Notes: generated from the letters alone by a model not told the origin. 64,000 bases of DNA from Nanobdellota archaeon (GCA_014240455.1 JAAZWY010000001.1:87924-151923), one strand, 5' to 3'. Shown: positions 1 to 59,499, counted from the first letter of the stretch. Program-made: numbers and translations.

Positions 1-1
1 T

Positions 2-880
2 AGCGATCACTTAGCTGTTGAATCAATCACCGTTGGTGAATACTGTGCAGGTGAAACTGCAGAAGTTAAAGTTAAGATTGCAAATATTGGAACAACACGA
101 ATGGATGATACTGACGATATTCAAGTTAGAATGACTGTTGGAAACTTCAATTTTGATGAAACAATTAAATGGACTGAAGATTTCAGATCTGGAGACTCAG
201 AATTATTTACATTTAATGTAGAAATTCCAGAAACAGCAACAGGTTCAAACCTTATGGATGTTTCTGTATTCCATGATCGAGATACAGATTCCGGAGACGA
301 TGGTTCAACTCTTTCAACAACTTATCAAGTTGCAACTGATAATTGTGCAGAAGTTGTAAGTTCTGATGCACAAGGAATAATTACTGGAACAGCTGTTGCT
401 GAAGGAACAGTTGGAAATCCAACTCGATATGATTTGACAATCTTGAACACTGGTTCAAGTTCGGCAACATATGACTTGGAAATTTCAGGAATTACTGGAT
501 GGGCAACATCACAAGTTGAACCAGCAAGCACAATTACTGTTGGAGCAGGTGAAACTGCAACTGTGTATGTTTACTTAACTCCAACTGAGGACGCAGCAGA
601 AAGCAACGCTGCGGTAATAACTTTGAAATCTGGAGAAACTATACTTCAAACAAAAACAGTAACAATGAATGTTGCTGGTTCTTCAATTTCAACATATACA
701 AATGCTTTACTCGGTTCAAGTTTCGCTGACTTTGGTACAAACCAACAAAATTTGATTACTTTGTTGTCTCTTGTAACAATCTTGTTTGTGACTGTAGGAA
801 CACTTTACACAGCAACACAACCAACAAGAACTTCAGCAAAAAATAAAAAGAAACGAGCAACAAAAAAGGAGCGTAAATAA
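2..880 (+). CDS. Secreted cell-surface protein, 5'-partial (reading frame open from window edge); CARDB-like repeats (NTGSSSATYDLEISGITGW...V.V.LTP), C-terminal TM helix plus basic tail KNKKKRATKKERK
   Basis: Frame is open from nt 2 upstream of the annotated Met; repeat motif shared with next two genes; hydrophobic C-terminal segment followed by Lys/Arg tail. Confidence 0.6.
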   Translation, partial: SDHLAVESITVGEYCAGETAEVKVKIANIGTTRMDDTDDIQVRMTVGNFNFDETIKWTEDFRSGDSELFTFNVEIPETATGSNLMDVSVFHDRDTDSGDDGSTLSTTYQVATDNCAEVVSSDAQGIITGTAVAEGTVGNPTRYDLTILNTGSSSATYDLEISGITGWATSQVEPASTITVGAGETATVYVYLTPTEDAAESNAAVITLKSGETILQTKTVTMNVAGSSISTYTNALLGSSFADFGTNQQNLITLLSLVTILFVTVGTLYTATQPTRTSAKNKKKRATKKERK

Positions 881-889
881 ACTCGCTCC
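868..889 (+). terminator. Hairpin ggagcg(n10)cgctcc overlapping the stop codon of the first surface-protein gene, followed by pyrimidine-rich tract
   Basis: Inverted repeat 868-873/884-889 seen directly; same hairpin-over-stop architecture recurs at end of second gene (2489-2510). Confidence 0.3.
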
Positions 890-901
890 CTCATACTCTC
901 A

Positions 902-917
902 CCTGAGGTACCTCAGG
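902..917. promoter_or_regulatory. Perfect 16-bp palindrome cctgaggtacctcagg immediately upstream of GGAGGTG Shine-Dalgarno-like motif and ATG of second surface-protein gene
   Basis: Self-complementary sequence read directly; position between two co-directional surface protein genes suggests operator or RNA hairpin. Confidence 0.35.
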
Positions 918-930
918 AGGTGGAAATACA

Positions 931-2502
931 ATGAATAAAATAACAAAAATTATGGCTAGTTTGCTTTTGGTAACATTGGCAGTACTAGTACCAGTAAGTG
1001 CAGCAACACCTGTATTAGAAATTAGTCACATTAATGCTAATACCGGAGATAGCGCAACAGCACGAATTGTGACTTCTGAATTGGTGATGACGCAAGGTGG
1101 AATTCTTAGCATTGATATTGATGTTATGAATACGCTTTCAACAGATTACACATTAGAAGTTATCGTAACTGGTGACGGAATTGACAACACAAAGACAGAA
1201 ACATTAGACATTCCAGCAAATCTAGGTTCTATTGCAGAAACTGTGACTGCTGAATTTGTTCTAGACAGTGTTCTGACAGAAGGACAACACACTACAAATG
1301 TACAATTAAATCTTAACGATATGACTCAAACACAAGACACAGGTTCATTATCAATGGATTTAACTGTTAACTCAGAAACTCCAGCAATTCATGAAGAAAA
1401 TTTGATTACAGCTGATTTGGATGAAACAACTTTGAATCCAGGTGACACTGTTGTAGTTGAAATTGATCTTGAAAATGGTGCAACTGATTATGACGAAGTA
1501 ACTGTTGAAGCTAAGATTTTAGATTCAAACGGTGAAAGAGTTGGAGACAAAGTTGAAGTAAACGTTGGTCACTTAGAAGCTGATTACGACGAAACTATGA
1601 CTGTGTCAATGGCACTTCCATCTGATATAGATACTGGCGCATATACAGTTCAAATTGTTGCAACTGGAGATGTTGAAAGTGGATCAGTTGTTTACACAGA
1701 TGCACAATTAGACACAGCAACATTGAATTTCGATGTTGAAAGACATGAACACAGTTTGACTATTGAATCTGTTCAACACAATTCAAATGCACAAGCAGGT
1801 GACACATACAGTGTTGCAGTTAGTGTTTTGAATAACGGAGAAAACTATGAAGAAAATGTTGTTATCACTGTCGCTATGGCAGGAGTAACTCAAACTTCAA
1901 CAACTTTCTCAGTTGACCAAGATGACGAAATTGTTCAATATTTCAACTTAGCTGTTCCAAGTGACGCACGAAGTTCAGAAGTATTAACTGTACTAGTAAA
2001 TGGAGAAGACTCTTCAGCAACATATTCAGCTGAAGTAAATGTTGGCGCAAGCACAACTGTAAGCTCTGCTGGATTATCAGCAACTGTTGACTCAGTTTCC
2101 AAGACTATTGGAGATGAAGGAACAGCATATATGATAACTCTAGTAAACAACGATGATTCTACAAGAACTGTCGCTGTTTCAGTAGGTGGAGTACAAGGTT
2201 GGGCAGATGCTACAATTACACCTGCAACTCTAACATTGGCTCCAGGGTCAAACGGAATTGCAAGCGTATACATTAACCCAGCATCAAGTGCTGAAGGAAC
2301 AAACGCTTTCACTGTTTATGTAAGTGAAGGAAATCAAGTGATTTCAAGCGTAGGTCTAACAGCAACAATTGATGATGCAATGAACACAATGTCAATGATC
2401 TTGGCAGGAATTGCATTGGTTATTGTATTTATGGCATACCAACAAAGAACAAGTCCAAAGAAAGGACGACGTTCTAAGAAATCTAAGCGAGTCTACTACT
2501 AA
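931..2502 (+). CDS. Secreted cell-surface protein with N-terminal signal peptide, CARDB-like repeats, C-terminal TM anchor and basic tail (KKGRRSKKSKR)
   Basis: Signal-peptide-like N-terminus MNKITKIMASLLLVTLAVLVPVSAATP; C-terminal hydrophobic helix MSMILAGIALVIVFMAY then basic tail. Confidence 0.65.
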   Translation: MNKITKIMASLLLVTLAVLVPVSAATPVLEISHINANTGDSATARIVTSELVMTQGGILSIDIDVMNTLSTDYTLEVIVTGDGIDNTKTETLDIPANLGSIAETVTAEFVLDSVLTEGQHTTNVQLNLNDMTQTQDTGSLSMDLTVNSETPAIHEENLITADLDETTLNPGDTVVVEIDLENGATDYDEVTVEAKILDSNGERVGDKVEVNVGHLEADYDETMTVSMALPSDIDTGAYTVQIVATGDVESGSVVYTDAQLDTATLNFDVERHEHSLTIESVQHNSNAQAGDTYSVAVSVLNNGENYEENVVITVAMAGVTQTSTTFSVDQDDEIVQYFNLAVPSDARSSEVLTVLVNGEDSSATYSAEVNVGASTTVSSAGLSATVDSVSKTIGDEGTAYMITLVNNDDSTRTVAVSVGGVQGWADATITPATLTLAPGSNGIASVYINPASSAEGTNAFTVYVSEGNQVISSVGLTATIDDAMNTMSMILAGIALVIVFMAYQQRTSPKKGRRSKKSKRVYY

Positions 2503-2535
2503 GTAGACTCCTTATTTTCTTTTCTTTTTTTTATA
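2489..2535 (+). terminator. Hairpin gagtctac(tactaa)gtagactc spanning the stop codon followed by T-rich tract (archaeal oligo-T terminator-like)
   Basis: Inverted repeat 2489-2496/2503-2510 and run cttattttcttttcttttttttat read directly. Confidence 0.4.
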
Positions 2536-2611
2536 GTTTATTAATCAGATAAATCTTTTTATATTCAGTTCTGACGGTACACCAAGGTAGAACTGCCTTA
2601 GGACTAATAAA

Positions 2612-5125
2612 ATGATGAAGAAACTTTTCATGACTTTGGCCATTCTTACGCTAGTTATGCAACCGGCCTTTGCTTTTACTCTTTCTTCAGCCGATCAGAG
2701 TATTTCAACATGTCCAAGTAATACTGGATTGTTTGTTGCTCAAGTTGGCAATTCTGGAAGTTCTACAGAGACTTACAGTTTAGGCGTGTCTGGAGCTGCT
2801 AGTGGTTGGGCAAGTGTTGCACCTGCCGGATTTGCTTTAGGACCAAGCCAGTCTCAAGATGTTTATGTTTATGTTACTCCTTCTTCAAATGCTCAAGCAG
2901 GTAATTATCCTTTAACTTTAACTGTTTCTTCTGGATCTTCAAGTCAAAATTTACTTTTTGATTATGAAGTTGAATCCTGTCATGATATTTCATTGACTGC
3001 TCAAGTCAATGAGCTATCGGTTTGCTCAGGAAATTCAGCAAGTTATACGTTAAATCTTAGAAACGAAGGTCAATGGGAAGACACATTTGATTTGGCAGTT
3101 TCTGGCGAAGCTGGACCTTGGTCAAGTTTGAGTAGAAATTCAGTTTCACTTGCACCTGGTGAGTCTGAACAAGTTAGTGTTTTAGTTACTCCTCCGCGAA
3201 ATAATGTTGGAGTTTATTCATTGGCAGTATCTGCTACTTCTCAAAGTGCAGGCGTTGTTGTTGCCCAATCTTTAACAATCACTTCAAGATCATGTTATGA
3301 TTTTGATATGGCTGCATCAGAAAATTATGTTTCATTTTGTGATAATTCTGAAGCAAAAGTACCGGTGACAATTACAAATTCAGGATCAGAAAATAATGTT
3401 TATAGTTTGGATTTAGACGGAACTGGTTGGTCAGTTCTTGATAGGGATTCAATTAGTGTTCCTGCCGGCGCGAGCAGCACATTCAATTTAATATTAACTC
3501 CAGGATTTGGAGATGTTGGAACAAGCGTTTTCAATATTGATGCCGAAGCTGCTACTGGAGATACATCTGATTCAGTAACAATTAATGCGAATGTTTTAAC
3601 CTGTAGAGATACAAGTTTGGATATTGAGAGCTCAAGTATTGAACTTTGCTCAGGAACAAGTGACACTGTTGATGTTATGCTGACGAATGCAGGACAGTTC
3701 CAAGAAAGCTACTCATTAACTGTCGATGGACCAAGTTGGGTTACATTAGATAGAAATTCAGTAATTCTTGCTTCAGGAGAATCATCATCAATGCAATTAT
3801 CTTTAACTCCACCTACAAACGTTGGATTGATTTATGAAGACGTCACAATTAATGCCAGATCTCAAAATGTTGGAAACACACAAGATTCTGATGCGATTAG
3901 AGTAAATGTTCCTGTTCGAGCAGCATGTTATAATGTTGATCTTACTGCAGAACACAAGTCAGTAACTGTTGCATATGGTGAGGGTGCATTAGTTCCTATT
4001 GTTGTTCGAAATACGGGTTCTCAAAGTAATATTTATGAATTTACAATTTCCGGAGACGGAGCTCAATTTGCACAAATTAATCCAGGCGCAATTGAAGTCG
4101 AAGGCAATACTGTTGAGGAAACTTATTTGTATATTTCAGTTCCACTTGATGCAGCAAAGAATTCTTACACTATTTCTGTAGCAGCTCAATCAGGAGACTT
4201 AAGAGATTCAACATCAGTCTTTTTAACAGTCTCAGATGAAGAACCTAAATTTGTTGGAACAATTCCAGGAAGCGATTCTGGATTACTTTCATCAGTATGG
4301 GGAGAGCTATCTGTTTTATATTCCGTTGCCTCTAATTTTGTTGTAAATTATTGGTTTGTATTTCCGGCACTATTAGCACTGTTGGTTGTGCTTTATGGAC
4401 TTGGAAGAGTTCGTGATTCTGAATCTTGGATGAAAGATTTGGAACTTCTTGAACAAGAGTTAGAGTTTTCTGAAAAGAAAGCAAAACCTAAACCTAAGAA
4501 GACACAACCATCATTGCTAAAACGATTCTCAGATTGGTTAATGGAAGAAGATGAAGTAAAAATAATAACTAAATCTAAACCACTGATTAAATCTGAAACT
4601 AAAGTTAAGAAAGAACCAGGAATATTCCAACGGTTTTCAGATTGGTTAATGGAAGAAGATACGCCAAAGGCTAAACCTAAACCTAAACCAAAGAAAGAAT
4701 CAGGAATGCTAAAACGAATCTCAGATTGGTTAATGGAAGATGATGAAGTTGTTCAAGTAACGCGTAAACCTGGAAAATCATTTTTTGAACAAGCTAAAGA
4801 ATTTCTTTTTGAAGAAGTCCCAGTTGCTGAAGAAAAAATAAAAGTTAAGGCTAAACCTAGAACAAAGAAAAAAGAAAAAGGAATTTGGCAAAAATTCATT
4901 GACTGGTTAGAAGAGGAAGATGAACCAAAAGTTAAGGTTAAACGCACAGTTAAGAAAGTAGCACCTAAGAAGACACAACCAGGGATCCTTCAACGATTTT
5001 CAGATTGGTTAATGGAAGAAGATGAACCAAAGGCTAAAGAAAAACCTAAACCTAAACCTAAACCAAAGAAAAAAGAAAAAGGAATTTGGCAAAAATTCAT
5101 TGATTGGTTAGAAGAGGAAGATTAA
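2612..5125 (+). CDS. Large type-I membrane surface protein: signal peptide, about 6 CARDB-like repeats (N.G...TYSL..G..W..L....L.PGES..V.V.VTPP), TM helix (FVFPALLALLVVLYGLG), then about 240-aa cytoplasmic tail with about seven (R/K)FSDWLMEED repeats separated by KPKPK linkers
   Basis: Repeats and TM read directly from translation; tail motif copies LLKRFSDWLMEEDE, IFQRFSDWLMEEDT, MLKRISDWLMEDDE, IWQKFIDWLEEEDE (x2), ILQRFSDWLMEEDE. Confidence 0.7.
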   Translation: MMKKLFMTLAILTLVMQPAFAFTLSSADQSISTCPSNTGLFVAQVGNSGSSTETYSLGVSGAASGWASVAPAGFALGPSQSQDVYVYVTPSSNAQAGNYPLTLTVSSGSSSQNLLFDYEVESCHDISLTAQVNELSVCSGNSASYTLNLRNEGQWEDTFDLAVSGEAGPWSSLSRNSVSLAPGESEQVSVLVTPPRNNVGVYSLAVSATSQSAGVVVAQSLTITSRSCYDFDMAASENYVSFCDNSEAKVPVTITNSGSENNVYSLDLDGTGWSVLDRDSISVPAGASSTFNLILTPGFGDVGTSVFNIDAEAATGDTSDSVTINANVLTCRDTSLDIESSSIELCSGTSDTVDVMLTNAGQFQESYSLTVDGPSWVTLDRNSVILASGESSSMQLSLTPPTNVGLIYEDVTINARSQNVGNTQDSDAIRVNVPVRAACYNVDLTAEHKSVTVAYGEGALVPIVVRNTGSQSNIYEFTISGDGAQFAQINPGAIEVEGNTVEETYLYISVPLDAAKNSYTISVAAQSGDLRDSTSVFLTVSDEEPKFVGTIPGSDSGLLSSVWGELSVLYSVASNFVVNYWFVFPALLALLVVLYGLGRVRDSESWMKDLELLEQELEFSEKKAKPKPKKTQPSLLKRFSDWLMEEDEVKIITKSKPLIKSETKVKKEPGIFQRFSDWLMEEDTPKAKPKPKPKKESGMLKRISDWLMEDDEVVQVTRKPGKSFFEQAKEFLFEEVPVAEEKIKVKAKPRTKKKEKGIWQKFIDWLEEEDEPKVKVKRTVKKVAPKKTQPGILQRFSDWLMEEDEPKAKEKPKPKPKPKKKEKGIWQKFIDWLEEED

Positions 5126-5856
5126 TGCCGTTCTTAGATGAGCAGTGGCCATTCAAATATAGTTTGTCACCTTGGTATATCAATAATGAAGATTTTGATG
5201 GAACGGATTTTGCTCCCTTGAATTTTAATTTAACTAAGGACGTTATGAATCAATTTGCGAAAGAAGCAAGAGATTTTCCTACCAAAGACGGAACTCCTTC
5301 TCGTGCAAGGCGGAACAAAGATGATCGGTTAATAATTCGCAGACCTTTTGATGGAATACTAAAGAGATTGAGAAAGATTAATGAAACCGAGTATATGATT
5401 TTAGGTTCCAGAATTATTGATAAAAACAGAATCGCTCCAGAAAAATCAATGAATCAGTTTAGATCTTTTGAATATGAATATGTTTTGAATTTAGATATAT
5501 GTTCAGATGCAAATTTCAATTCACTATTAGAATCACTTTCTTCGACGGAACCAAATCCTCAATTTTTGGAAGGAATCCTCCAGAAAAGAGATCGATTCAG
5601 TAAAGATTTCATTTCTGAAAGTGAAATTTCATTTGTTGATGTAACAAATAAGTATTGGAATTCATCAGATAATAAACATTCCTGGTTTGAAGTTTTTTAT
5701 ATGATTCCGAAAGCTTCTGAAAATAGAGATTTAGAGTTGAAAAGACTTCTCGAATCTAATTTTGATGGAGGCACTCATAAGCGTTATAGAAAATATCAAG
5801 AAGAACGTGCAATTCAAATGGTTGCAGAATGGGAAGCAGAACAATCTAGATCTTAA
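5125..5856 (+). CDS. Hypothetical cytoplasmic protein (243 aa from ATG overlapping upstream stop, TAATG); ORF-track start at 5104 would require TTG
   Basis: ATG at 5125 overlaps TAA of upstream gene, giving translational coupling; no recognisable family motif. Confidence 0.5.
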   Translation: MPFLDEQWPFKYSLSPWYINNEDFDGTDFAPLNFNLTKDVMNQFAKEARDFPTKDGTPSRARRNKDDRLIIRRPFDGILKRLRKINETEYMILGSRIIDKNRIAPEKSMNQFRSFEYEYVLNLDICSDANFNSLLESLSSTEPNPQFLEGILQKRDRFSKDFISESEISFVDVTNKYWNSSDNKHSWFEVFYMIPKASENRDLELKRLLESNFDGGTHKRYRKYQEERAIQMVAEWEAEQSRS

Positions 5857-6754
5857 TTTCCATGAAATCTTTTGCCATTGTCAATTTTCCTTTGAAAACT
5901 GATTTGGCTTCTTGTTGTAATTCTTTTGTTGAACGATATCTTTGTGAGAAGTGAGTTAGAACTAGATGTTTTACTTTTGCTTGCTTTCCAAGCCTTGCTG
6001 CTTCTTTAGTAGTCATGTGCCCACCTTTTTCTGCTGAACTCTTTACTTTATTTGAAAATGTTGCTTCACAAACAAATAAATCTGCATCCTTTGCGAGTTC
6101 AACAATTGGAGTGTAATAAGCAGTATCAATAGTTATTGCAAATTTCTTTCCATGTCGAGCGTAAGTTGCATCCTTTGCTTTGATTTTCTTACCTTCAATT
6201 ACAACATCTTTTCCTCGTTGTAATCGTTTTAGAGCTATATGTTGAGTAGGAATTCCTTTGGAATTTAGATAATTAGTATCAATTCTAAGTCGAGTTTTTT
6301 CTTCAAATGAATATCCAAAACACGGAATTGGATGCTTAAGTTTCAAAGCATTAATTTTATATTTATCAGTTTCACAAATTGTTTTGAGTTTTATATTTGA
6401 GAGTTCGTTGATTATTAATCTGTAGCTAAGTTTTTCATGTTCGTAAGCTTTCATAATTGCTGCGATTTTTTTACCAGTTCCTTTTGGTCCGTAAATTTCT
6501 AATGGAGTTTTTCGTTGGTTCATTGCCATACTCATTAGTAAACCCGGGAGTCCAAGAACGTGATCTCCGTGCCAGTGAGAAATGAAAATCTTTGTAATTT
6601 TTTGCGGATTTTCTCTCGCGATTCTAATTTGTCTTTGTGTTCCTTCTCCGCAATCAAATAAAAAAGACTCTCCCGAGTAGGTAAATAGACCTGCTGTCTG
6701 ATTTCTGTCTTTTGTTGGGAATGCAGAGGAGGTTCCCAAGATCTTTAGCTTCAT
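5846..6754 (-). CDS. rnz: Ribonuclease Z (tRNA 3' endonuclease, metallo-beta-lactamase fold)
   Basis: HWHGDH zinc motif, N-terminal GTSSAFPT...NQTAGLF...FLFDCGEGTQRQ typical of tRNase Z short form. Confidence 0.85.
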   Translation of the reverse strand: MKLKILGTSSAFPTKDRNQTAGLFTYSGESFLFDCGEGTQRQIRIARENPQKITKIFISHWHGDHVLGLPGLLMSMAMNQRKTPLEIYGPKGTGKKIAAIMKAYEHEKLSYRLIINELSNIKLKTICETDKYKINALKLKHPIPCFGYSFEEKTRLRIDTNYLNSKGIPTQHIALKRLQRGKDVVIEGKKIKAKDATYARHGKKFAITIDTAYYTPIVELAKDADLFVCEATFSNKVKSSAEKGGHMTTKEAARLGKQAKVKHLVLTHFSQRYRSTKELQQEAKSVFKGKLTMAKDFMEIKI

Positions 6755-6854: not shown

Positions 6855-7346
6855 ATGGAAAAAGGAACCCTAATTGGAAATAAGGTCGTGCTCAGCACGA
6901 GTTCTCTATTTGATCGTAGTGTTTTTGGTACTTTGAATAAGCAAGGCGGTATTGAATTAAGTTCTGAAGAAGCACTTTATCTTGTAGAGAAGAAAAAAAT
7001 TGATGTAGGTACTAGTTTTGATAATCTGCGTAGAAAATTTAATCGAAGCAATAAGAATTTTGAAGAAAGATATGCTGTTTTCAGAGATTTGAGAAATCGA
7101 GGCTATATTTTGAAGAGTGGTTTGAAATTTGGTTGTGATTTTAGAGTTTATGATAAAGGTTCAAGACCTGGAAAAACTCATGCTAAATGGCTAGTGTTTT
7201 CTACCAAAGAAAATGCTAAGTCTTCTTGGAAAGAAATGTCTGGAATGGCACGAGTTGCAAATTCTACTAAGAAAAATGTCTTGGTCGGAATTGTAGATTC
7301 AGAAAATGGAGTTAGCTATTTTGAAGTTTCTTGGAGACGACCATGA
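6855..7346 (+). CDS. endA: tRNA-splicing (intron) endonuclease EndA
   Basis: C-terminal catalytic motif GCDFRVYDKG...HAKWLV matches archaeal EndA family (F/Y-RVY..G....H..LV). Confidence 0.8.
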   Translation: MEKGTLIGNKVVLSTSSLFDRSVFGTLNKQGGIELSSEEALYLVEKKKIDVGTSFDNLRRKFNRSNKNFEERYAVFRDLRNRGYILKSGLKFGCDFRVYDKGSRPGKTHAKWLVFSTKENAKSSWKEMSGMARVANSTKKNVLVGIVDSENGVSYFEVSWRRP

Positions 7347-7549
7347 GTGTTTATATTGGATGGGTTTGTAGGAATTGCAAACGTGCAGTAGGTTCTGAAA
7401 GACGTTCAATTAGCGTTAAATCAAGACTCAAATGTAAAATTTGTGAGAAAACACAAGTTTATGATGAGAGTATCAAATCAGGACTCTCTGATAATCCTTT
7501 AGTTATTGTTAAGTGGGTTCAAGAGTGGAATTCCCGAAAACTACATTAA
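7343..7549 (+). CDS. Small zinc-ribbon protein (CRNC...CKIC)
   Basis: Two CxxC pairs; ATG at 7343 overlaps endA stop as ATGA (ORF-track start 7331 is TTG). Confidence 0.5.
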   Translation: MSVYIGWVCRNCKRAVGSERRSISVKSRLKCKICEKTQVYDESIKSGLSDNPLVIVKWVQEWNSRKLH

Positions 7550-7855
7550 TTTTTGTGCTTCTTTGACTAGTTTTTCAATTTGTTCTAGTTTGTGTCTTAG
7601 CTCTCTTTTCTTTCCGAAATTGAATAAATCTACAAGAATATCTTTGAATACTTTGCTGTCTTTTTCTTTACTTAATTCCTCATATTGTTCAGGATCATCT
7701 TGACGCATAAATTCTGCAGCAATTTTCTGAGCCACAACCATTTCATTATCAGTGAAATCTAAATCAGAGAATAGTTCTTCCATCGACTGTTCTTTTTTAG
7801 AAGTCTTTTTAGCCATATTTTGATTAGTTTCTTTGGTTTTTATTGATTTGTTCAA
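7541..7855 (-). CDS. Hypothetical charged/coiled-coil protein
   Basis: ORF only; highly charged, no family motif recognised. Confidence 0.4.
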   Translation of the reverse strand: MNKSIKTKETNQNMAKKTSKKEQSMEELFSDLDFTDNEMVVAQKIAAEFMRQDDPEQYEELSKEKDSKVFKDILVDLFNFGKKRELRHKLEQIEKLVKEAQKLM

Positions 7856-7859
7856 TAGA

Positions 7860-8453
7860 TTAAATACTGAGTCTTGATTGATTTCTCTTTAGCCAAGCCT
7901 TGTGTTTTTTGAATTCAGGGCATTTTTCTTGGACTAATCGCCAGAATTCCTTAGAATGATTCATCTCAATTCGGTGGCATAATTCATGTATTACTACATA
8001 TTCAATTACTTCTGTTGGAGCCATAGCAAGACGCCAGTTGAAATTAAGATTTCCTGCTGAAGAGCAAGAACCCCACCTAGTTTTTTGACCTTTTATGAAT
8101 ACTTTATTTATGCCGTATTCGTTGTTTTCGTTATGAATTTCAAGCAATCCTTCGATGATTCGTTTAGTTTCATTCCTATAGAACGATTCTAAATCATTAT
8201 TTTCAAAGAATTCTGGAGGTTTTAGTTCTCCGAGATGTAGACATCCGTCTTCATTCATAACTAACTCATATTTTCGCCACTGTTTGTTGATCCATGCAGT
8301 CTTTTTCAACACAAACTTATCAATTTCGGTAGTTGGAATGTGTTTTCCTGCGTTAATTCTTAGACCTTCTTCATTGACTCGTAAGGAGATTCGGTTAGAA
8401 CGGGCCCTTCTTTTTAGAACTGTCGGCATACTTAATTGGTCGAAAAATTCCAT
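7860..8453 (-). CDS. YgjP-like (DUF45/COG1451) zinc metallohydrolase
   Basis: C-terminal HELCHRIEMNHSKEFW motif and N-terminal RRARSNRISLRV pattern characteristic of DUF45. Confidence 0.75.
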   Translation of the reverse strand: MEFFDQLSMPTVLKRRARSNRISLRVNEEGLRINAGKHIPTTEIDKFVLKKTAWINKQWRKYELVMNEDGCLHLGELKPPEFFENNDLESFYRNETKRIIEGLLEIHNENNEYGINKVFIKGQKTRWGSCSSAGNLNFNWRLAMAPTEVIEYVVIHELCHRIEMNHSKEFWRLVQEKCPEFKKHKAWLKRNQSRLSI

Positions 8454-24376: not shown

Positions 24377-25789
24377 ATGAAGAAAGTATCTAAGTCCGAT
24401 TATGTGCAGAGTTTGAAATGTCTCAACTATGTGTGGCATAAATTCAACGATAAGGAAAAACTACCTTCTCTTGACAGAGTATTCATTGTCCAAAGAGGAG
24501 TTGAGTTTGGAGCGCTCGCTCAGAAATTATATTCTGATGGAATTTCAATTAAATTTAATTACAAACAAGCTTCCAAAGATACAAGTGAATCTTTAGATTT
24601 AGGAAAACCAATTTTTGAAGCAACATTTGAAACTGATAAACTATATTGCATGGTTGATATACTTGTTCCATCTGAAGGCGGCTGGGATATTGTTGAAGTT
24701 AAAAGCGGATCAAGTGTTAAGAAAGAACATTATGATGATGTGGCTTTTCAGAGGTATGTATTGGAAAAATCAGGGATTAAAGTAAATAAATGTTATTTGA
24801 TGCACGCAAATAAAAAATATATTCGAAAAGGAGATATTGATATTAAGAGCCTATTCATGAAGACCGATATTACTGAGAAAGTTGAAGAAGTTATAAACAC
24901 AGTTCCGGGAAATATTGAAAGACTTCTCTCTTATGTTTCAAAAGATATGCCAGACAACAAACATAAATTCTGTTCAAAACCAACGAAATGCGATTTGAGA
25001 CAAATCTGTTGGGATCATTTACCTGAACATAATATTTTAGAATTACACGGACTTTGGTTTAGTAAAGCAGAGCCTTTTATGGATGAAGGTAAATTATCTA
25101 TCCTGGATTTACCTGACACGTTTTTTGAGAAACATAAACATACTATTCAAAAAAATGCTATATCTTCGGGTGAACCTCAAATTGATCATAAAAAGATTAG
25201 AGAGTTTAAAGAAACGCTAACTTATCCACTTTCTCATTTTGATTTTGAAACTTTGGGAACGCCGATTCCTTTACACGACGGTTTGAATCCTTGGGGAAAA
25301 TTTGCATTCCAATACTCAATTCATGTTGATGATGGGAAGAAGATAAAACACTATGAGTTTTTAGCTTCAGATGATAAAGATCCTCAGGAGGCACTAGTTA
25401 AACAGTTAATTAAAGATATGCCTACGACTGGAAGTATTGTTACTTTCAATATGGGTTTTGAGAAAGGTATTCTTCGGGATCTTGGAAAGCGTTTTCCTGC
25501 TTATGCAGATAAGTTGAATGATATGATTAAACGAGTTGTTGATTTACAAACTGTGTTTAAGAAGTTTCATTACCATCATCCTGCTCAGAAAGGGAGTAAT
25601 TCTTTGAAAGATGTACTTCCTGTATTTTCTGATAAGAAACATAGTGAGTTAGAGATTCAAGATGGGACTGATGCTTTTACCGCTTTTTATGATAAATATT
25701 ATTTGGGTAAGGATGTTTCAAGAAAGGCTTTACTTGATTATTGTGCATTAGATACTCTTGCAATGGTTGAGATACTTGAAGGGATTTAG
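24377..25789 (+). CDS. Fusion nuclease: N-terminal Cas4/RecB-like PD-(D/E)XK domain (with Cys cluster) + C-terminal DnaQ-like DEDD 3'-5' exonuclease domain (DUF2779-like architecture)
   Basis: N-terminal Y..SL.C..Y.W, D...EVK and QRY motifs; Cys at C-x5-C-x8-C; C-terminal FDFET ... FNMGFE ... YCALD acidic exonuclease motifs. Confidence 0.6.
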   Translation: MKKVSKSDYVQSLKCLNYVWHKFNDKEKLPSLDRVFIVQRGVEFGALAQKLYSDGISIKFNYKQASKDTSESLDLGKPIFEATFETDKLYCMVDILVPSEGGWDIVEVKSGSSVKKEHYDDVAFQRYVLEKSGIKVNKCYLMHANKKYIRKGDIDIKSLFMKTDITEKVEEVINTVPGNIERLLSYVSKDMPDNKHKFCSKPTKCDLRQICWDHLPEHNILELHGLWFSKAEPFMDEGKLSILDLPDTFFEKHKHTIQKNAISSGEPQIDHKKIREFKETLTYPLSHFDFETLGTPIPLHDGLNPWGKFAFQYSIHVDDGKKIKHYEFLASDDKDPQEALVKQLIKDMPTTGSIVTFNMGFEKGILRDLGKRFPAYADKLNDMIKRVVDLQTVFKKFHYHHPAQKGSNSLKDVLPVFSDKKHSELEIQDGTDAFTAFYDKYYLGKDVSRKALLDYCALDTLAMVEILEGI

Positions 25790-28706: not shown

Positions 28707-29099
28707 CTATGCGAATTTAATCCAAGCTAGAATTAGAAGCAGACTATTTACAAGATATATGCTTGTACAAACTAAACAGAAGTTTTTGAGTTTGAAATAT
28801 GAAATATATGCCAGATAAATTGTTGTAAGCATTCCGAATGCTGCTAAGTATAGAATCCAGGGTGCGTAAAAAGTTAAGTATAGAATAAATATTGTTGAGT
28901 AAAATCCAATTCCCAGAATTGAATTATTTATCCCTAACGTTCTCGAATATTTACTTTCAAATGCTGCTGAGCAAGAGATTTTTTTATTTATGTCACAAAC
29001 GGGAGAATAATCTTCTTGCGCCACTAATTTTCTTTCAACATACAAGGAGTAAACAGATAGAATTAATCCTAAAATTGCTAAGATTTGAATGTAAATCAT
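28707..29099 (-). CDS. Vitamin K epoxide reductase (VKOR) family membrane protein
   Basis: Loop cysteines C..... CSAAFESKYS and TM CxxC (CLVC); 4 TM. Confidence 0.65.
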   Translation of the reverse strand: MIYIQILAILGLILSVYSLYVERKLVAQEDYSPVCDINKKISCSAAFESKYSRTLGINNSILGIGFYSTIFILYLTFYAPWILYLAAFGMLTTIYLAYISYFKLKNFCLVCTSIYLVNSLLLILAWIKFA

Positions 29100-55536: not shown

Positions 55537-57444
55537 TTACTTATATTTCCAACCAGCAATGTGGATTGTATCCCATAGAATTCCTTTCGATCTCCAAACT
55601 TTTACTTTGAACCCTGCTTGTTCGAAAGTTTGACTTATTTTATCATCTTCACTCATCCATTCCGGAGCCCTGAATATTTTAAACACTCGATCATAATCTA
55701 TGAAATAAACTCTCCCTCGTTGTGCCATTCTCAGATTTAATGCATGAAGTACTTTTTCAGGTTCCGATAAATAACCAAGTAAACCTACTGAAGTTGCGCC
55801 ATGTAAAGTATGAACATTTTTGTGAAGTTCGTGTCTTGATCCAGAACTTTCAAGAATAAATTCAACATTTTGCAGTCCATGTTTCTGAGCAAGCTTTGTT
55901 GCATTGTGTAAATTGTTTGTTGAAACGTCAGTTGCAATAACTTGACCTTCTGCTCCAACTAGCTGAGCTAAATCTTTTGCTAGTTCTCCTGAACTGGCAC
56001 CCATGTTTAGGATTCTTCGTCGTTCAAATCCTTCAAAGTGTTTTAGAATATAGTTGTGAGTTTTTGGTTTTACAAATAATTTGTATGAAAACTTTTGTAA
56101 TGATGATGAAGTGTCCAATAATTTTTGAACGATTAATGGTTTACTTTCAACAGTACGCATTAAATAAAGAGGTACTCCGAGTGCTACAAACATTGCTCCA
56201 GTTGCAGTAGTAATCGGTTCGATTCCACCAAGTAAGAACATTAGAACTAACCCAAGCGTGACTGGCATAACTTTTCCAAATGGAACTTTGAAGGTTCTTT
56301 CAGTATCGGGTTGAGTAAATCTGAGTATAGTTACACTTACTACGACCATTGAGTACATGAAAATTGCGAGCGGTAGTACTAATTCCAATAGAAGTGCATA
56401 TGACCCAGAGATTATTATCAATCCTGATAGCACTGCCTGAACGAGGATTGCTATGTAAGGTGTTTGATATTTTGGGTGAATTTTTTGAAGTGCTTTTGGA
56501 AGAAGTCCATCTCTTGCTAAAGCGAAAATTAATCTTGGAGTTGTAATAATCCATGCTGCAGCCCCACCGAAGATATTTAGGAAGATTAGAAGAGTCATTA
56601 TTTTTCCTCCGGTTGTTCCCATGATTGCGTTTGCTACTTCAGTAAGCGGAGCGTTCGATCCTGCTAGAATTTCCCAGTTGACTGCACCTAACGAAATAGA
56701 TACAACTCCAATGGCCAATAGTGTTACGCATAAGGTTCCCCACATCATAACTTTCGGAATTACATTTTTTGCATCCTTTGTTTCTTCTGCAAGGTTTGCT
56801 ACAGTTTCCCATCCGAAGAAGGTTTCCAGAATATATACCATTGCGATTACTAGCGAAATTATTAATCCCTTTTCTCCAATGTGTGGCATCATATTTATGA
56901 TTTGAATATTTCCGAAGTCAAAATAATATACTCCCCAACTAATCAAAGTCCAAAGAGACAGGATGGTAACAATGGAAAAGATTAGCAGAACCTTTACAGA
57001 TAAATCTACTCCGCGGAATGAAACCACATTTATTAATGTTACAATTCCGAGAGCAACTACTATTTTGAAAAGTTGAGACATATCAAAGAAAATGGTTAGG
57101 TATTCTAAACAACCAATTGACAGCATTGCAATTGTTACGTTTGCAACCATCCATGAAGTCCAACCCACTAAGAATCCGCCAAATTCTCCAAAAGCTTGTT
57201 TAGTATATTCATATACTCCTCCGGATTTTGGGAACATTCCAACTAGTTCTGCGAAACATGCTGCTACAAGCATTGCAAGAATTGCTACTCCTACCCAAGC
57301 GATTAAGGATGCTGGACCGGCGATTGCTGCTGCGATTCCCGGAACGAAGAATATTCCTGTTCCAATAATTGCGTTTATTGCCAATAGAATCAATACGCTG
57401 AACGAAATGCTTTTCTTTAGCTCAGGAGTATTTGATTCTGCCAC
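55537..57444 (-). CDS. Fusion: APC-family amino acid permease (N-terminal about 440 aa) + class I SAM-dependent methyltransferase domain (C-terminal about 190 aa)
   Basis: 12 TM then ILNMGASSGELAKDL...VIATDVS...NVEFILESSG (motifs I/II/post-I) in cytoplasmic C-terminus. Confidence 0.65.
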   Translation of the reverse strand: MAESNTPELKKSISFSVLILLAINAIIGTGIFFVPGIAAAIAGPASLIAWVGVAILAMLVAACFAELVGMFPKSGGVYEYTKQAFGEFGGFLVGWTSWMVANVTIAMLSIGCLEYLTIFFDMSQLFKIVVALGIVTLINVVSFRGVDLSVKVLLIFSIVTILSLWTLISWGVYYFDFGNIQIINMMPHIGEKGLIISLVIAMVYILETFFGWETVANLAEETKDAKNVIPKVMMWGTLCVTLLAIGVVSISLGAVNWEILAGSNAPLTEVANAIMGTTGGKIMTLLIFLNIFGGAAAWIITTPRLIFALARDGLLPKALQKIHPKYQTPYIAILVQAVLSGLIIISGSYALLLELVLPLAIFMYSMVVVSVTILRFTQPDTERTFKVPFGKVMPVTLGLVLMFLLGGIEPITTATGAMFVALGVPLYLMRTVESKPLIVQKLLDTSSSLQKFSYKLFVKPKTHNYILKHFEGFERRRILNMGASSGELAKDLAQLVGAEGQVIATDVSTNNLHNATKLAQKHGLQNVEFILESSGSRHELHKNVHTLHGATSVGLLGYLSEPEKVLHALNLRMAQRGRVYFIDYDRVFKIFRAPEWMSEDDKISQTFEQAGFKVKVWRSKGILWDTIHIAGWKYK

Positions 57445-57933: not shown

Positions 57934-59499
57934 ATGGATACATATAATAAACACGAAGAGGCAATGTTGGCAGATATGCATGCGACATTCCCAGAATATC
58001 TTGAAAATTCTAATACTGAAATTACAAACGAAATTGAAACAGTACAATCAAATTCACGATTTGGAACTGTTGGAAAATACGTTTTAGGCGGACTATCATT
58101 ACTTGGTCTTGCTGTGGCAGGCGCTGCAAAAGATATGGCACCATCTTTAGATGATGCAATTGTATATCACACAGACCATGCAGATAATACTCAATTAGTT
58201 CCATACGCTGGAGTAACTCAAGAAGATCCAGTTACAGATGGACAAAACATTGTTTTGAATGAAAACGGTAGAATTGTTACTGTAGATACAGAAGATAATT
58301 CAATTACACGAAGTCAAAACGCAATCTCAGGACTAGATAATCTTCAAATTAATAACGGAACAATTTCTTTCCAAACAGCTGACAAGATTTTCGCATATGA
58401 TCGCGAAGGTTTCTTGAATATTGTTGAAGACGGATATGTAGGTTCTCATCACTCAGATGGTGAACACATTCTTAGAGAAGGAAGCAACGGAGGAGTTGTT
58501 AGAGAAGATATTTCCTCAGGCGCAGAACAAGTTCTTTATGAAAATGGTTCAGTTTCAAACCTTCGAGTAGATGGCAACTTAAACCTATTTTCAGTTAATG
58601 AAGTTGTTGATAATAACACTCTTGAAAGATTAATGCTTGTAGATTCAAACGACGCAGCTAATGCAACTGAACTCCACAATGGACCAGTTAAATTCGCAGA
58701 ACTGTCTGGAGACAAGATTTATGTTGGAATTGAAAATCCAAATGATAATGCAACCGTTAACATCTTTACGTATGATGTAAATGGAAATCTAGTGGGTTCA
58801 GTAATTAACAACGTTTCTCCAAACACATTTGACATTGACCAAGGAACAATGGTTGCTGTTGAAGGAAATCAAACTATTTATGCAACAAATATTGCAACTG
58901 GAGACACACAAGTTATTGCAGATTCAAATGCAACTAAAACTAATATTGATATTGAAGGAAACGTTGTTACTTGGGTAGAAAATGGAACTCAAGTTGCTTA
59001 TGTTACAATTCCAGAGGAAACAGTTGGAAATGAAACTAATGAAACAACTTTAGAAGATTTGATGGCTGAATTAAACGCAACTCGAGATCAATTGAGTTCA
59101 GTTAATGATCAATTAAACGCTTCTGAAGCTAATGATACAGCTTACCAAGCTGAAGTTAACCAACTAACTGGTGAAATTTCAGACTTGCAAACTGAAATCA
59201 ACGGATTAGACAGTAATGCTTCTGACTATCAAACTGAAATTAACCGATTAAACGGAGATATTTCAAACTTAACTGAAAATGTTTCAGACTATTCTGCTCA
59301 ACTAACTGCAGCACAGACTCAAAGAGATGAAAATGCTACACGTGTTGGCGAATTAGAAGAAGCTTTGGATTCTGCTGAAGGAACTAGTACAATGTCTGCT
59401 TTTGTTGGAATTGCACTTGGCGGAGCAGCTGGAGGAATGATCGGTACACGATTAGCTAGTAAACCTGAAGTTGATTACGGTTCTTCTGAAGAAGAGTAA
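57934..59499 (+). CDS. Bitopic surface protein: N-terminal cytoplasmic segment, TM, ectodomain dense in N-x-S/T sequons, coiled-coil heptads, C-terminal Gly-rich TM
   Basis: More than 15 NxT/NxS sequons (NATE, NDNATV, NNVS, GNQT, NATK, NGTQ, GNETNETT, NATR, NASE, NDT, NAS, NLTENVS, NATR); coiled-coil region 59050-59400. Confidence 0.55.
   Translation: MDTYNKHEEAMLADMHATFPEYLENSNTEITNEIETVQSNSRFGTVGKYVLGGLSLLGLAVAGAAKDMAPSLDDAIVYHTDHADNTQLVPYAGVTQEDPVTDGQNIVLNENGRIVTVDTEDNSITRSQNAISGLDNLQINNGTISFQTADKIFAYDREGFLNIVEDGYVGSHHSDGEHILREGSNGGVVREDISSGAEQVLYENGSVSNLRVDGNLNLFSVNEVVDNNTLERLMLVDSNDAANATELHNGPVKFAELSGDKIYVGIENPNDNATVNIFTYDVNGNLVGSVINNVSPNTFDIDQGTMVAVEGNQTIYATNIATGDTQVIADSNATKTNIDIEGNVVTWVENGTQVAYVTIPEETVGNETNETTLEDLMAELNATRDQLSSVNDQLNASEANDTAYQAEVNQLTGEISDLQTEINGLDSNASDYQTEINRLNGDISNLTENVSDYSAQLTAAQTQRDENATRVGELEEALDSAEGTSTMSAFVGIALGGAAGGMIGTRLASKPEVDYGSSEEE

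What the first reader, a model, noticed from the sequence alone, without database searches (positions are those of the whole stretch)
2..5125. Triad of CARDB-repeat surface proteins; the largest has a cytoplasmic tail of about seven (R/K)FSDWLMEED repeats
Three head-to-tail genes encode secreted proteins built from the same roughly 100-aa repeat (N.G...TY.L..SG..GW....P..I.L.PGES..V.V.VTP). Each ends in a TM helix plus a basic cytoplasmic tail. The third (837 aa) is unusual: after its TM helix it has an about 240-aa cytoplasmic tail. That tail has six or seven near-identical amphipathic/acidic motifs (LLKRFSDWLMEEDE, IFQRFSDWLMEEDT, MLKRISDWLMEDDE, IWQKFIDWLEEEDE x2, ILQRFSDWLMEEDE) separated by KPKPKPK linkers. 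A repeated short linear motif on the cytoplasmic side of a surface protein suggests a multivalent docking site for a cytoplasmic partner, such as a cytoskeletal or division protein or a signalling adaptor. I do not recognise this motif from a described family.
Basis: seen in the sequence. Interest (0 to 1): 0.6.

Follow-up and report, generated by a model that had tools for sequence, protein, structure and literature searches.

The report
Surface protein with repeated cytoplasmic docking motif
A tiny uncultivated marine DPANN archaeon encodes three neighbouring cell-surface proteins. One of them has an unusually long tail inside the cell with six or seven copies of a conserved short peptide, most likely a multi-site landing pad for a still unknown internal partner.

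Summary
Window 2..5125 holds three head-to-tail genes for secreted Ig-like-domain proteins. Each has a C-terminal membrane helix and a basic tail.

The third gene (2612..5125, 837 aa) has a signal peptide, five beta-sandwich domains and one TM helix. Its 239-aa K/P-rich tail carries six canonical copies and one degenerate copy of K-K-x-K-G-Φ-W-x-[KR]-F-x-[DN]-W-L-x-E-E-D.

The domains meet the Pfam cut-offs for FixG_C, NEW3 and HYDIN-type Ig, but not for CARDB.

The motif is not chance: 0 hits in 20,000 shuffles. It is kept in every orthologue found (Woesearchaeota/Pacearchaeota MAGs, ectodomains only 30-40% identical). Copy number varies from 1 to 8. The last copy sits at the exact C-terminus in 24 of 29 proteins. 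Linkers diverge freely.

A profile search of 1.84 billion proteins found only this family. Pfam, NCBIfam and PDB searches found no match to the tail.

AlphaFold predicts each motif as a short helix within disorder. A multivalent cytoplasmic docking array is the best reading, but it is untested. Binding of the helices to the membrane is the main rival.

The downstream 243-aa protein is absent from about half the lineages, so it cannot be the universal partner.

The parts
2..880 (+). P1: C-terminal 292 aa of the first surface protein, cut by the window edge. Contains beta-sandwich domains, a TM helix (about aa 249-271 of the fragment) and a short basic tail (AKNKKKRATKKERK).
   Evidence: (FixG_C 33.8 bits, NPCBM_assoc 29 bits, CARDB 15.2 bits below cut-off). 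Orthologues are 705-718 aa.
931..2502 (+). P2: second surface protein, 523 aa. Has a signal peptide, beta-sandwich domains, a TM helix (about aa 482-505) and a basic tail ending in a conserved ...K[RK]VYY-COOH.
   Evidence: The VYY C-terminus is conserved in 15 orthologous loci.
2489..2510 (+). Terminator-like hairpin followed by a T-run, overlapping the P2 stop codon. P3-P4 may therefore be a separate transcription unit.
   Evidence: pattern match only.
2612..5125 (+). P3: 837-aa type-I membrane protein, the subject of the finding.
2612..2674 (+). P3 signal peptide (aa 1-21, MMKKLFMTLAILTLVMQPAFA|F).
   Evidence: Hydrophobic N-terminal segment. The Sec type and the AFA|F cleavage site are read from the sequence, not predicted by a tool. 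The position is conserved in orthologues.
2675..4234 (+). P3 ectodomain: five tandem Ig-like beta-sandwich domains (aa 22-541). Eight invariant Cys lie at domain borders. There are no N-x-S/T sequons.
   Evidence: Pfam FixG_C 73.2 bits, HYDIN-Ig 51.8, NPCBM_assoc 35.3. AF2 pLDDT is about 90. Foldseek matches HYDIN/CFAP Ig arrays. Cys conservation. Sequon depletion.
4337..4411 (+). P3 transmembrane helix (aa about 576-600).
   Evidence: Hydropathy. AF2 helix at 583-600.
4418..4468 (+). Conserved acidic juxtamembrane helix SESWMKDLELLEQELEF (aa 603-619).
   Evidence: Conserved in the marine clade. AF2 helix at 610-620.
4511..4552 (+). Motif copy 1, SLLKRFSDWLMEED (aa 634-647).
   Evidence: helix 636-643.
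4619..4660 (+). Motif copy 2, GIFQRFSDWLMEED (aa 670-683).
   Evidence: helix 672-679.
4703..4744 (+). Motif copy 3, GMLKRISDWLMEDD (aa 698-711).
   Evidence: helix 701-707.
4772..4819 (+). Degenerate central copy, GKSFFEQAKEFLFEEV (aa 721-736). It has the same ...EFL.EE core as the single copy of distant homologues (KFNEFLEEE).
4880..4921 (+). Motif copy 4, GIWQKFIDWLEEED (aa 757-770).
   Evidence: helix 758-767.
4982..5023 (+). Motif copy 5, GILQRFSDWLMEED (aa 791-804).
   Evidence: helix 794-799.
5081..5122 (+). Motif copy 6, GIWQKFIDWLEEED-COOH (aa 824-837), at the exact C-terminus.
   Evidence: helix 825-836. The last copy is C-terminal in 24 of 29 family members.
5125..5856 (+). P4: 243-aa soluble orphan protein. 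Its ATG overlaps the P3 stop codon (TAATG). It is restricted to the marine sub-clade. It is a candidate partner but not a universal one.

Best explanation
P1, P2 and P3 are the conserved cell-envelope proteins of a marine Woesearchaeota/Pacearchaeota-type DPANN archaeon. They may be S-layer-like.

P3 is a type-I membrane protein. It has five Ig-like domains outside the cell, one TM helix, and an intrinsically disordered, lysine/proline-rich tail inside.

The tail displays 1-8 copies (6+1 here) of a roughly 18-residue module. Each module is a basic run, then Gly, then a 2.5-turn amphipathic helix (Φ-W-x-K/R-F-x-D/N-W-L), then an acidic cap (E-E-E/D). Copies are spaced about 28-39 residues apart, and one copy almost always forms the free C-terminus.

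I infer that each module is a short linear motif that folds into a helix when it binds a hydrophobic, basic groove of a cytoplasmic protein. The tail would then work as a multivalent, high-avidity platform that couples the external envelope protein to something inside the cell. Copy number would tune the avidity.

Shown: gene structure, topology logic, motif conservation and specificity, helix-in-disorder prediction, restriction to one protein family.

Inferred: that the ligand is a protein, what that protein is, and that the triad is the main envelope layer.
For: - Topology: signal peptide plus a single TM; R/K after the TM; tail pI 9.38 against ectodomain pI 4.05. Invariant Cys residues and strong N-x-S/T depletion occur only in the Ig part.
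- Motif reality: 6 observed against 0 in 20,000 shuffles.
- Conservation: 116 unique motif instances from 29 proteins. Positions not constrained by the search pattern are still conserved: Gly at -2 in 62%, K/R at +2 in 95%, D/N at +5 in 73%. Positions that the pattern allowed to vary are nearly fixed: F at +3 in 87%, W at +6 in 96%, L at +7 in 95%. This residue-specific conservation persists where ectodomains are only 30-40% identical and the linkers cannot be aligned.
- Selection: synonymous changes occur within motif codons, and motif amino-acid identity is at least that of the linkers.
- Structure: AF2 gives a short helix at each motif and pLDDT below 50 in between.
- C-terminal placement: the last copy ends the protein in 24 of 29 members.
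- Charge: the acidic cap leaves the helix region net negative, which is unfavourable for binding to an anionic membrane (sequence; for the helical wheel).
- Exclusivity: only 11 hits among 1.84 billion representatives, all orthologues or fragments. No Pfam, NCBIfam or PDB match.
- Context: the synteny LeuRS | three surface genes | RNase Z | EndA is conserved across the clade.
Against: - No partner has been identified. The adjacent P4 is missing in about half of the lineages and has no recognisable fold.
- No cytoskeletal or division gene lies in the 64-kb window.
- The helix is strongly amphipathic (muH 0.64, against 0.78 for the E. coli FtsA membrane-targeting helix). It is Trp/Phe-rich, preceded by lysines and already held at the membrane. 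It could therefore simply lie in the membrane interface.
- The blocky +/- charge pattern could instead drive tail-tail association.
- No topology predictor could be run.
- S-layer status is unproven. The absence of sequons is atypical for archaeal S-layer glycoproteins.
Confidence: 0.45

Rival explanations
1. The motifs are in-plane membrane-binding amphipathic helices, like the FtsA or MinD membrane-targeting sequences but in tandem. The tail would lie flat on the inner leaflet. It would stiffen, curve or laterally organise the membrane under the envelope protein, with no protein partner.
For: - High hydrophobic moment (0.64) with one contiguous 160-degree hydrophobic face made of I, W, F, I, W and L.
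- Trp and Phe are typical residues of the membrane interface. Lysine runs precede each helix.
- The tail is tethered to the membrane by the TM helix.
- The tail is net positive, from +10 to +43 in orthologues.
- By eye it resembles the E. coli FtsA C-terminal helix GSWIKRLNSWLRKEF (own knowledge; muH computed).
Against: - Each helix is immediately followed by a conserved E-E-E/D cap (E 88% and E/D 99% at +9 and +10). This makes the helix region net negative, which is unusual for helices that bind anionic membranes.
- F, W and L are nearly invariant rather than interchangeable hydrophobic residues.
- The protein ends exactly after the acidic cap in 24 of 29 members. This is hard to explain by membrane partitioning.
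- A protein that already has a TM helix does not need a targeting helix.
Confidence: 0.25
2. The tail acts as a tail-to-tail zipper. Acidic-aromatic motifs of P3 pair with basic segments, either P3's own K/P linkers in neighbouring molecules or the short basic cytoplasmic tails of the co-encoded P1 and P2 (for example the conserved ...KSKRVYY-COOH of P2). This would cluster the three envelope proteins and fix their stoichiometry from the inside.
For: - Each unit has a blocky polyampholyte pattern: a block of about +6 followed by a block of about -4.
- P1 and P2 always accompany P3 and carry short, highly basic tails.
- The P2 C-terminus ...K[RK]VYY is conserved in 15 loci, including distant ones with a single P3 motif (L021, L023).
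- The three-gene synteny is conserved.
Against: - VYY is absent from the P2-like genes of L009, L011, L019, L020, L022 and L031, which still have 4-6 P3 motifs.
- Pure electrostatics would not require invariant F..WL residues.
- No co-variation could be measured.
- This is entirely an inference.
Confidence: 0.15
3. The lysine/proline-rich tail is mainly a nucleic-acid tether, histone-H1-like, that holds the nucleoid or RNA at the membrane of a very small cell. The motifs would play a secondary role.
For: K/P-rich linkers (KPKPKPKKK) make up most of the tail. Net charge reaches +43 in L003. In composition they resemble H1-type tails (own knowledge).
Against: The linkers are the least conserved part of the tail, while the conserved element is acidic and aromatic. 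No DNA-binding family was detected.
Confidence: 0.05
4. The tail is a functionally neutral, recently expanded low-complexity repeat with no specific role.
For: Repeat units are 63-89% identical at the DNA level, and copy number differs between relatives. Short fragments carrying 2 copies exist (P0040).
Against: The motif is retained from single-copy distant homologues up to 8-copy forms, across lineages with 30% ectodomain identity. It keeps residue-specific conservation, shows synonymous change, and keeps a fixed C-terminal position.
Confidence: 0.03

Closest known systems
Archaeal Ig-rich, C-terminally TM-anchored surface-layer proteins (e.g. Pyrobaculum PySLP, Sulfolobus SlaB)
   Same: N-terminal signal peptide, a string of Ig-like beta-sandwich domains, one C-terminal TM helix and a basic cytoplasmic end. 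The PySLP preprint describes a short, highly basic, conserved tail (bioRxiv 10.64898/2026.08.21.746120, read). P1 and P2 fit this template.
   Different: P3 has a 239-aa tail with a repeated conserved motif instead of a few basic residues. There are no N-glycosylation sequons at all. No sequence or fold match to a solved S-layer protein ranked high. Lattice formation and abundance are unknown.
FixG_C / NPCBM-associated NEW3 / HYDIN-ASH type Ig domains (Pfam PF11614, PF10633, PF22544); CARDB (PF07705) as a relative
   Same: The ectodomain repeats score above the Pfam cut-offs for these three families. They fold as beta-sandwiches that superpose on HYDIN/CFAP Ig arrays.
   Different: CARDB itself is below its cut-off. 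These families describe only the extracellular fold and say nothing about the tail.
Eukaryotic type-I adhesion or cargo receptors with linear motifs in the cytoplasmic tail, e.g. calsyntenin/alcadein with two Trp-acidic motifs that bind the kinesin light-chain TPR domain (own knowledge, not tested here)
   Same: Beta-sandwich repeats outside, a single TM helix, and a disordered tail with repeated Trp-plus-acidic short motifs. This is an analogy for how the tail may work (multivalent docking).
   Different: No homology. The motif here is a longer amphipathic helix (W..F..WL) preceded by a basic run. No TPR or other partner has been identified. The organism is a prokaryote.
C-terminal membrane-targeting amphipathic helices of FtsA and MinD
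   Same: A short, Trp-containing, strongly amphipathic helix at the extreme C-terminus, with basic residues nearby.
   Different: The helices here are followed by an acidic cap, occur in tandem (1-8 copies), sit on a protein that already spans the membrane, and have nearly invariant hydrophobic residues.

Membership tests
CARDB (Pfam PF07705) | Score at or above the Pfam gathering cut-off (22.7 bits) | tested here: not met
   P1 scores 15.2 bits and P3 11.2 bits. P2 is not listed.
FixG_C / NPCBM_assoc (NEW3) / HYDIN-type Ig (E-set-like beta-sandwich domains) | Score above the Pfam cut-off | tested here: met
   P3: FixG_C 73.2 bits (cut-off 25.6), HYDIN_VesB_CFA65-like_Ig 51.8 (25.5), NPCBM_assoc 35.3 (24.4). 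P1: FixG_C 33.8, NPCBM_assoc 29. P2 is only sub-threshold (22.7 against 25.6).
FixG_C / NPCBM_assoc (NEW3) / HYDIN-type Ig (E-set-like beta-sandwich domains) | Beta-sandwich fold | tested here: met
   The AF2 model has five all-beta domains with pLDDT about 90. Foldseek E-values of 1e-29 to 1e-17 to HYDIN/CFAP Ig arrays.
Archaeal S-layer protein (functional class) | Signal peptide, Ig-like domains, C-terminal TM anchor with a short basic tail | tested here: met
   Met for P1 and P2. P3 has the same plan but a long tail.
Archaeal S-layer protein (functional class) | N-glycosylation sites (usual in archaeal S-layer glycoproteins) | tested here: not met
   0 N-x-S/T sequons against 17.6 expected in the three ectodomains.
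Archaeal S-layer protein (functional class) | Forms a 2-D lattice and is among the most abundant proteins | not testable with these tools
   Needs cryo-ET or proteomics on an uncultivated organism.
Archaeosortase/exosortase C-terminal sorting signals (PGF-CTERM and relatives); choice-of-anchor T | NCBIfam model hit above cut-off | tested here: not met
   No sorting-signal model was hit. choice_anch_T scored 56.5 bits, below its cut-off of 70. Only P3 was scanned against NCBIfam.
Short linear motif (SLiM) array in a disordered tail | Short conserved islands within predicted disorder, conserved across orthologues while the flanks diverge | tested here: met
Short linear motif (SLiM) array in a disordered tail | A defined binding partner | not testable with these tools
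   No complex prediction tool was available. P4 is excluded as a universal partner by its distribution.
Membrane-targeting amphipathic helix (FtsA/MinD type) | High hydrophobic moment with a contiguous hydrophobic face | tested here: met
   muH 0.64-0.66 for the motif windows, against 0.78 for the FtsA helix.
Membrane-targeting amphipathic helix (FtsA/MinD type) | Net positive or neutral helix, without an adjacent acidic cluster | tested here: not met
   A conserved E-E-E/D cap follows each helix. KKEKGIWQKFIDWLEEED has net charge -2.
Any described family for the tail (Pfam, NCBIfam, PDB sequences) | Significant profile or sequence match | tested here: not met
   The literature string search also returned nothing.

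The most novel reading that the evidence does not exclude
The W..F..WL-EEE array is a prokaryotic counterpart of eukaryotic receptor tails. It would be a lineage-wide, copy-number-tunable multivalent docking platform through which the outer envelope lattice of these DPANN cells is mechanically or spatially coupled to a so far unknown cytoplasmic scaffold, such as a cytoskeletal, division or host-contact apparatus. The conserved C-terminal peptides of the sister proteins (P2 ...KVYY-COOH; ...EEEL-COOH in other clades) would belong to the same inside-the-cell recognition code.
Probability: 0.25. Interest if true: 0.75.

Novelty: new variant of a known kind. Interest (0 to 1): 0.5.

Why it matters
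Long cytoplasmic tails carrying arrays of linear motifs are common on eukaryotic adhesion receptors. To my knowledge (not searched systematically here) they have rarely been described on prokaryotic envelope proteins.

Almost nothing is known about how the envelope of DPANN archaea is organised or how it connects to the cell interior. These are tiny, mostly symbiotic cells.

The conserved 18-residue peptide gives a concrete bait for pull-downs, structure-prediction screens and localisation probes. It could be used to find the internal partner in organisms that cannot yet be cultured.

The sequon-free ectodomains with conserved Cys residues, and the conserved C-terminal peptides of the sister proteins, add testable features of the same envelope system.

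Tried and rejected
1. CARDB membership: below the Pfam cut-off.
2. P4 as the obligatory partner:
   - A P4 profile search of all loci found it only in the marine sub-clade.
   - The downstream genes in L001 and L009 are unrelated to P4.
3. Known family for the tail: Pfam, NCBIfam, PDB sequence search with a single unit and with the tail profile, and a literature string search all returned nothing.
4. The motif on other protein architectures or in viruses:
   - HMMER scan of 1.84 billion representatives.
   - Viral contig scan.
   - Metagenome scan.
   - All returned only P3 orthologues or fragments. The one exception is a possibly stand-alone 193-aa protein (P0003, L001).
5. By-eye fits to PIP-box, MIM, LIR and p53-TAD-like patterns: the spacing does not match and the Gln is not conserved. 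Rejected as memberships (reasoning only).
6. Solved S-layer relatives: a profile search against PDB sequences gave nothing. Foldseek returned generic Ig arrays.
8. The afdb50 fold library was unavailable.
9. The sigma-70 promoter scan is uninformative for an archaeon.
10. No cytoskeleton or division genes were found in the rest of the window.

Full report
**What is in the sequence**

Window 1..5900 carries four same-strand genes:
- P1, 2..880. It is cut by the window edge and 292 aa are visible.
- P2, 931..2502, 523 aa.
- P3, 2612..5125, 837 aa.
- P4, 5125..5856, 243 aa. Its ATG overlaps the P3 stop codon (TAATG).

A convergent RNase Z gene (5846..6754) and a tRNA-splicing endonuclease gene follow.

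P2 and P3 start with signal-peptide-like hydrophobic segments. P1, P2 and P3 each have one C-terminal hydrophobic helix followed by basic residues.

In P3 the helix at aa about 576-600 is followed by 239 residues. These are 22% Lys, 15% Glu and 8% Pro, with a net charge of about +11.

The tail holds six exact copies of [FI]xDWLxE[ED]D, with the F/I at aa 639, 675, 703, 762, 796 and 829. There is also one degenerate copy, GKSFFEQAKEFLFEEV. The last copy ends the protein.

At the DNA level the units are 63-89% identical direct repeats. No shuffle of the tail out of 20,000 produced even one strict match.

**What the extracellular parts are**

Pfam places the repeats in FixG_C, NPCBM_assoc (NEW3) and HYDIN-type Ig. 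P3 scores 73.2, 35.3 and 51.8 bits, all above the cut-offs. CARDB scores 15.2 bits (P1) and 11.2 bits (P3), below its cut-off of 22.7.

The AlphaFold model of P3, built on seven orthologues, has five beta-sandwich domains (aa 22-541) at pLDDT about 90. Foldseek aligns them with HYDIN/CFAP Ig arrays and macroglobulin MG domains. No solved S-layer protein ranks high, and a profile search of PDB sequences is empty.

P1 and P2 share only their membrane-proximal domain clearly with the P3 repeats (BLAST 1e-9 to 1e-5).

Eight Cys residues at the domain borders of P3 are invariant across orthologues. A VKOR gene lies in the window.

**Topology**

I could not run a topology predictor. The following evidence all places the Ig part outside and the tail inside:
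- A cleavable-looking signal peptide plus a single TM helix.
- R/K residues immediately after the TM helix.
- A tail pI of 9.38 against an ectodomain pI of 4.05.
- Conserved Cys residues only in the ectodomain.
- A striking absence of N-x-S/T sequons from the ectodomains: 0 observed against 17.6 expected. Eight cytoplasmic proteins of the window show no depletion (27 observed, about 27 expected).

**Organism and distribution**

The P4 homologues include one protein named from an 'uncultured DHVE6 group euryarchaeote'.

A scan of one genome per species (185,579 species) found 13 loci. All are MAGs labelled Candidatus Woesearchaeota, Pacearchaeota, Nanoarchaeota or Nanobdellati.

The order LeuRS | three surface genes | (P4) | RNase Z | EndA is conserved. 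The rest of the window is archaeal housekeeping.

**The tail family**

- A word-indexed search of 5.8 billion proteins with the tail found 3 relatives.
- An exhaustive HMMER profile search of 1.84 billion representatives found 11. All were 770-875-aa orthologues of P3 or fragments of them.
- Viral contigs gave nothing.
- Metagenome contigs gave six more members of the same family.
- A unit-profile search added nothing new.

Across 29 non-identical family members there are 116 unique motif instances. The consensus is K-K-x-K-G-Φ-W-x-[KR]-F-x-[DN]-W-L-x-E-E-D.

Positions that my search pattern did not constrain are still conserved: Gly at -2 in 62%, K/R at +2 in 95%, D/N at +5 in 73%. Positions where the pattern allowed alternatives are nearly fixed: F in 87%, W in 96%, L in 95%.

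Copy number ranges from 1 (L021, L023, L024) to 8 (L015, L027-L029). Spacing between copies is mostly 28-39 residues. In 24 of 29 proteins the last copy ends the protein, with at most one residue after the E-E-E/D.

Linkers are K/P-rich but cannot be aligned between distant members. Between closer relatives the motif codons show synonymous changes, and motif amino-acid identity is at least that of the linkers.

A loose motif pattern run over all six frames of the window and of all fetched loci hit only this gene family, plus one spurious hit in a non-coding frame.

**Structure of the tail**

AlphaFold predicts a helix at each motif: 636-643, 672-679, 701-707, 758-767, 794-799 and 825-836. It also predicts a juxtamembrane helix at 610-620. 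Everything between has pLDDT below 50.

On a helical wheel, I, W, F, I, W and L occupy one 160-degree face. The hydrophobic moment is 0.64-0.66, compared with 0.78 for the E. coli FtsA membrane-targeting helix.

**Interpretation**

These properties are those of a short linear motif array:
- Conserved, residue-specific islands within disorder.
- Variable copy number.
- A fixed C-terminal copy.
- Restriction to one protein family.

I therefore favour multivalent docking of a cytoplasmic protein, at confidence 0.45.

The main rival (0.25) is that the helices lie in the membrane interface. Amphipathicity, Trp/Phe content, the preceding lysines and the tethering to the membrane speak for it. Against it are the conserved acidic cap (the unit has net charge -2), the near-invariance of F..WL, and the exact C-terminal ending.

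A third reading (0.15) is a charge-block zipper, either between P3 tails or between the P3 motifs and the short basic tails of P1 and P2.

In support of some cytoplasmic recognition of these tails, P2 orthologues in 15 loci end in a conserved ...K[RK]VYY-COOH. This includes distant loci with a single P3 motif. P1-like proteins of another clade end in ...EEEL-COOH. However, VYY is absent in several lineages that keep 4-6 motifs, so it is not an obligatory partner.

**The downstream protein P4**

P4 is tightly coupled to P3, with a stop/start overlap here and in L002-L008 and L013-L018. A P4 profile finds it only in that marine sub-clade.

In L012 the RNase Z gene follows P3 directly. L009 and L011 have unrelated downstream genes.

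It may be a lineage-specific accessory or partner, but it cannot explain a motif that is older than it.

**Comparison with known systems**

P1 and P2 match the common plan of archaeal TM-anchored Ig-rich surface proteins with a short basic tail. That plan is described for Pyrobaculum PySLP (bioRxiv 10.64898/2026.08.21.746120).

P3 departs from this plan through its long motif-bearing tail. All three proteins depart from typical S-layer glycoproteins through the complete lack of sequons. Whether they form the S-layer cannot be tested here.

Functionally, the closest analogies are eukaryotic type-I receptors whose disordered tails carry repeated Trp-acidic or similar motifs. This rests on my own knowledge and was not tested.

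I rate the finding a new variant of a known kind: a known type of surface protein carrying a previously undescribed cytoplasmic motif array. The mechanism is plausible but unproven.

Noticed in passing
window 2..4234 (ectodomains of P1, P2, P3); orthologues P0034-P0042: There are no N-x-S/T glycosylation sequons at all: 0 observed against 17.6 expected from shuffles. Six P3 orthologues have 0-1 against 5-10 expected. Eight cytoplasmic proteins of the window show no depletion. This suggests selection against N-glycosylation of the folded Ig domains.
   Followed up: partly
L021 about 7300-7700 and L024 about 7800-8200 (stalk before the TM helix of distant P3 homologues): These distant homologues carry a long Asn-Glu-Thr-rich stalk (NETAETNETVEANETTNETNETGFNETV...) and a single juxtamembrane KFNEFLEEE motif. 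Here the sequons are concentrated in a linker, the opposite of the sequon-free Ig domains.
   Followed up: no
window 2612..4234 (P3 aa 34, 123, 138, 228, 243, 331, 346, 439) and window 28707..29099: Eight invariant Cys residues lie at the Ig-domain borders of P3. A VKOR (disulfide-forming) gene is in the same window, and one lies near the locus in L012. This suggests disulfide-stapled domains.
   Followed up: partly
window 2440..2502 (P2 C-terminus) and P2 orthologues in 15 loci: The P2 cytoplasmic tail ends in a conserved basic run plus VYY-COOH (IYY in L021). This holds from close relatives out to L012, L021 and L023. It is a second conserved cytoplasmic C-terminal peptide in the triad.
   Followed up: partly
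L009 2256, L019 3631, L020 2891 (ends of the upstream surface-protein genes): In another clade the upstream TM-anchored surface protein ends in ...W(N/S)K..EEEL-COOH. This is an acidic C-terminal peptide rather than a basic one.
   Followed up: no
L001 210..791 (P0003): A 193-aa protein with four motif copies (GxWxRFxDWLxEE) but no signal peptide, Ig domains or TM helix. An in-frame stop and an unrelated 49-aa ORF lie upstream. It is either a stand-alone soluble version of the tail or an assembly artefact on a 1.4-kb contig.
   Followed up: partly
[not shown]
   Followed up: yes
P0040 (67 aa) and P0036 (63 aa), metagenome fragments: Short predicted proteins join the juxtamembrane helix directly to one or two motif copies. 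This indicates either strain-level copy-number variation by recombination between repeats, or assembly collapse of the repeats.
   Followed up: no
window 2489..2510: A 9-bp-stem hairpin followed by a T-rich run sits exactly at the P2 stop codon. It may separate P1-P2 from a P3-P4 transcription unit.
   Followed up: no
window 55537..57444 (- strand): A 634-aa ORF fuses an amino-acid permease (aa 13-404) to a C-terminal SAM-methyltransferase domain (aa about 470-585). This appears to be an uncommon domain combination.
   Followed up: no
window 57934..59499: A 521-aa protein with only coiled-coil-type sub-threshold matches. Long coiled-coil-like proteins also lie downstream of the P3 orthologues in L019 and L020.
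   Followed up: no
window 24377..25789: A 470-aa protein with Cas4-like nuclease, DUF2779 and RNase_H-like domains. No CRISPR array or other cas genes were noticed nearby.
   Followed up: no
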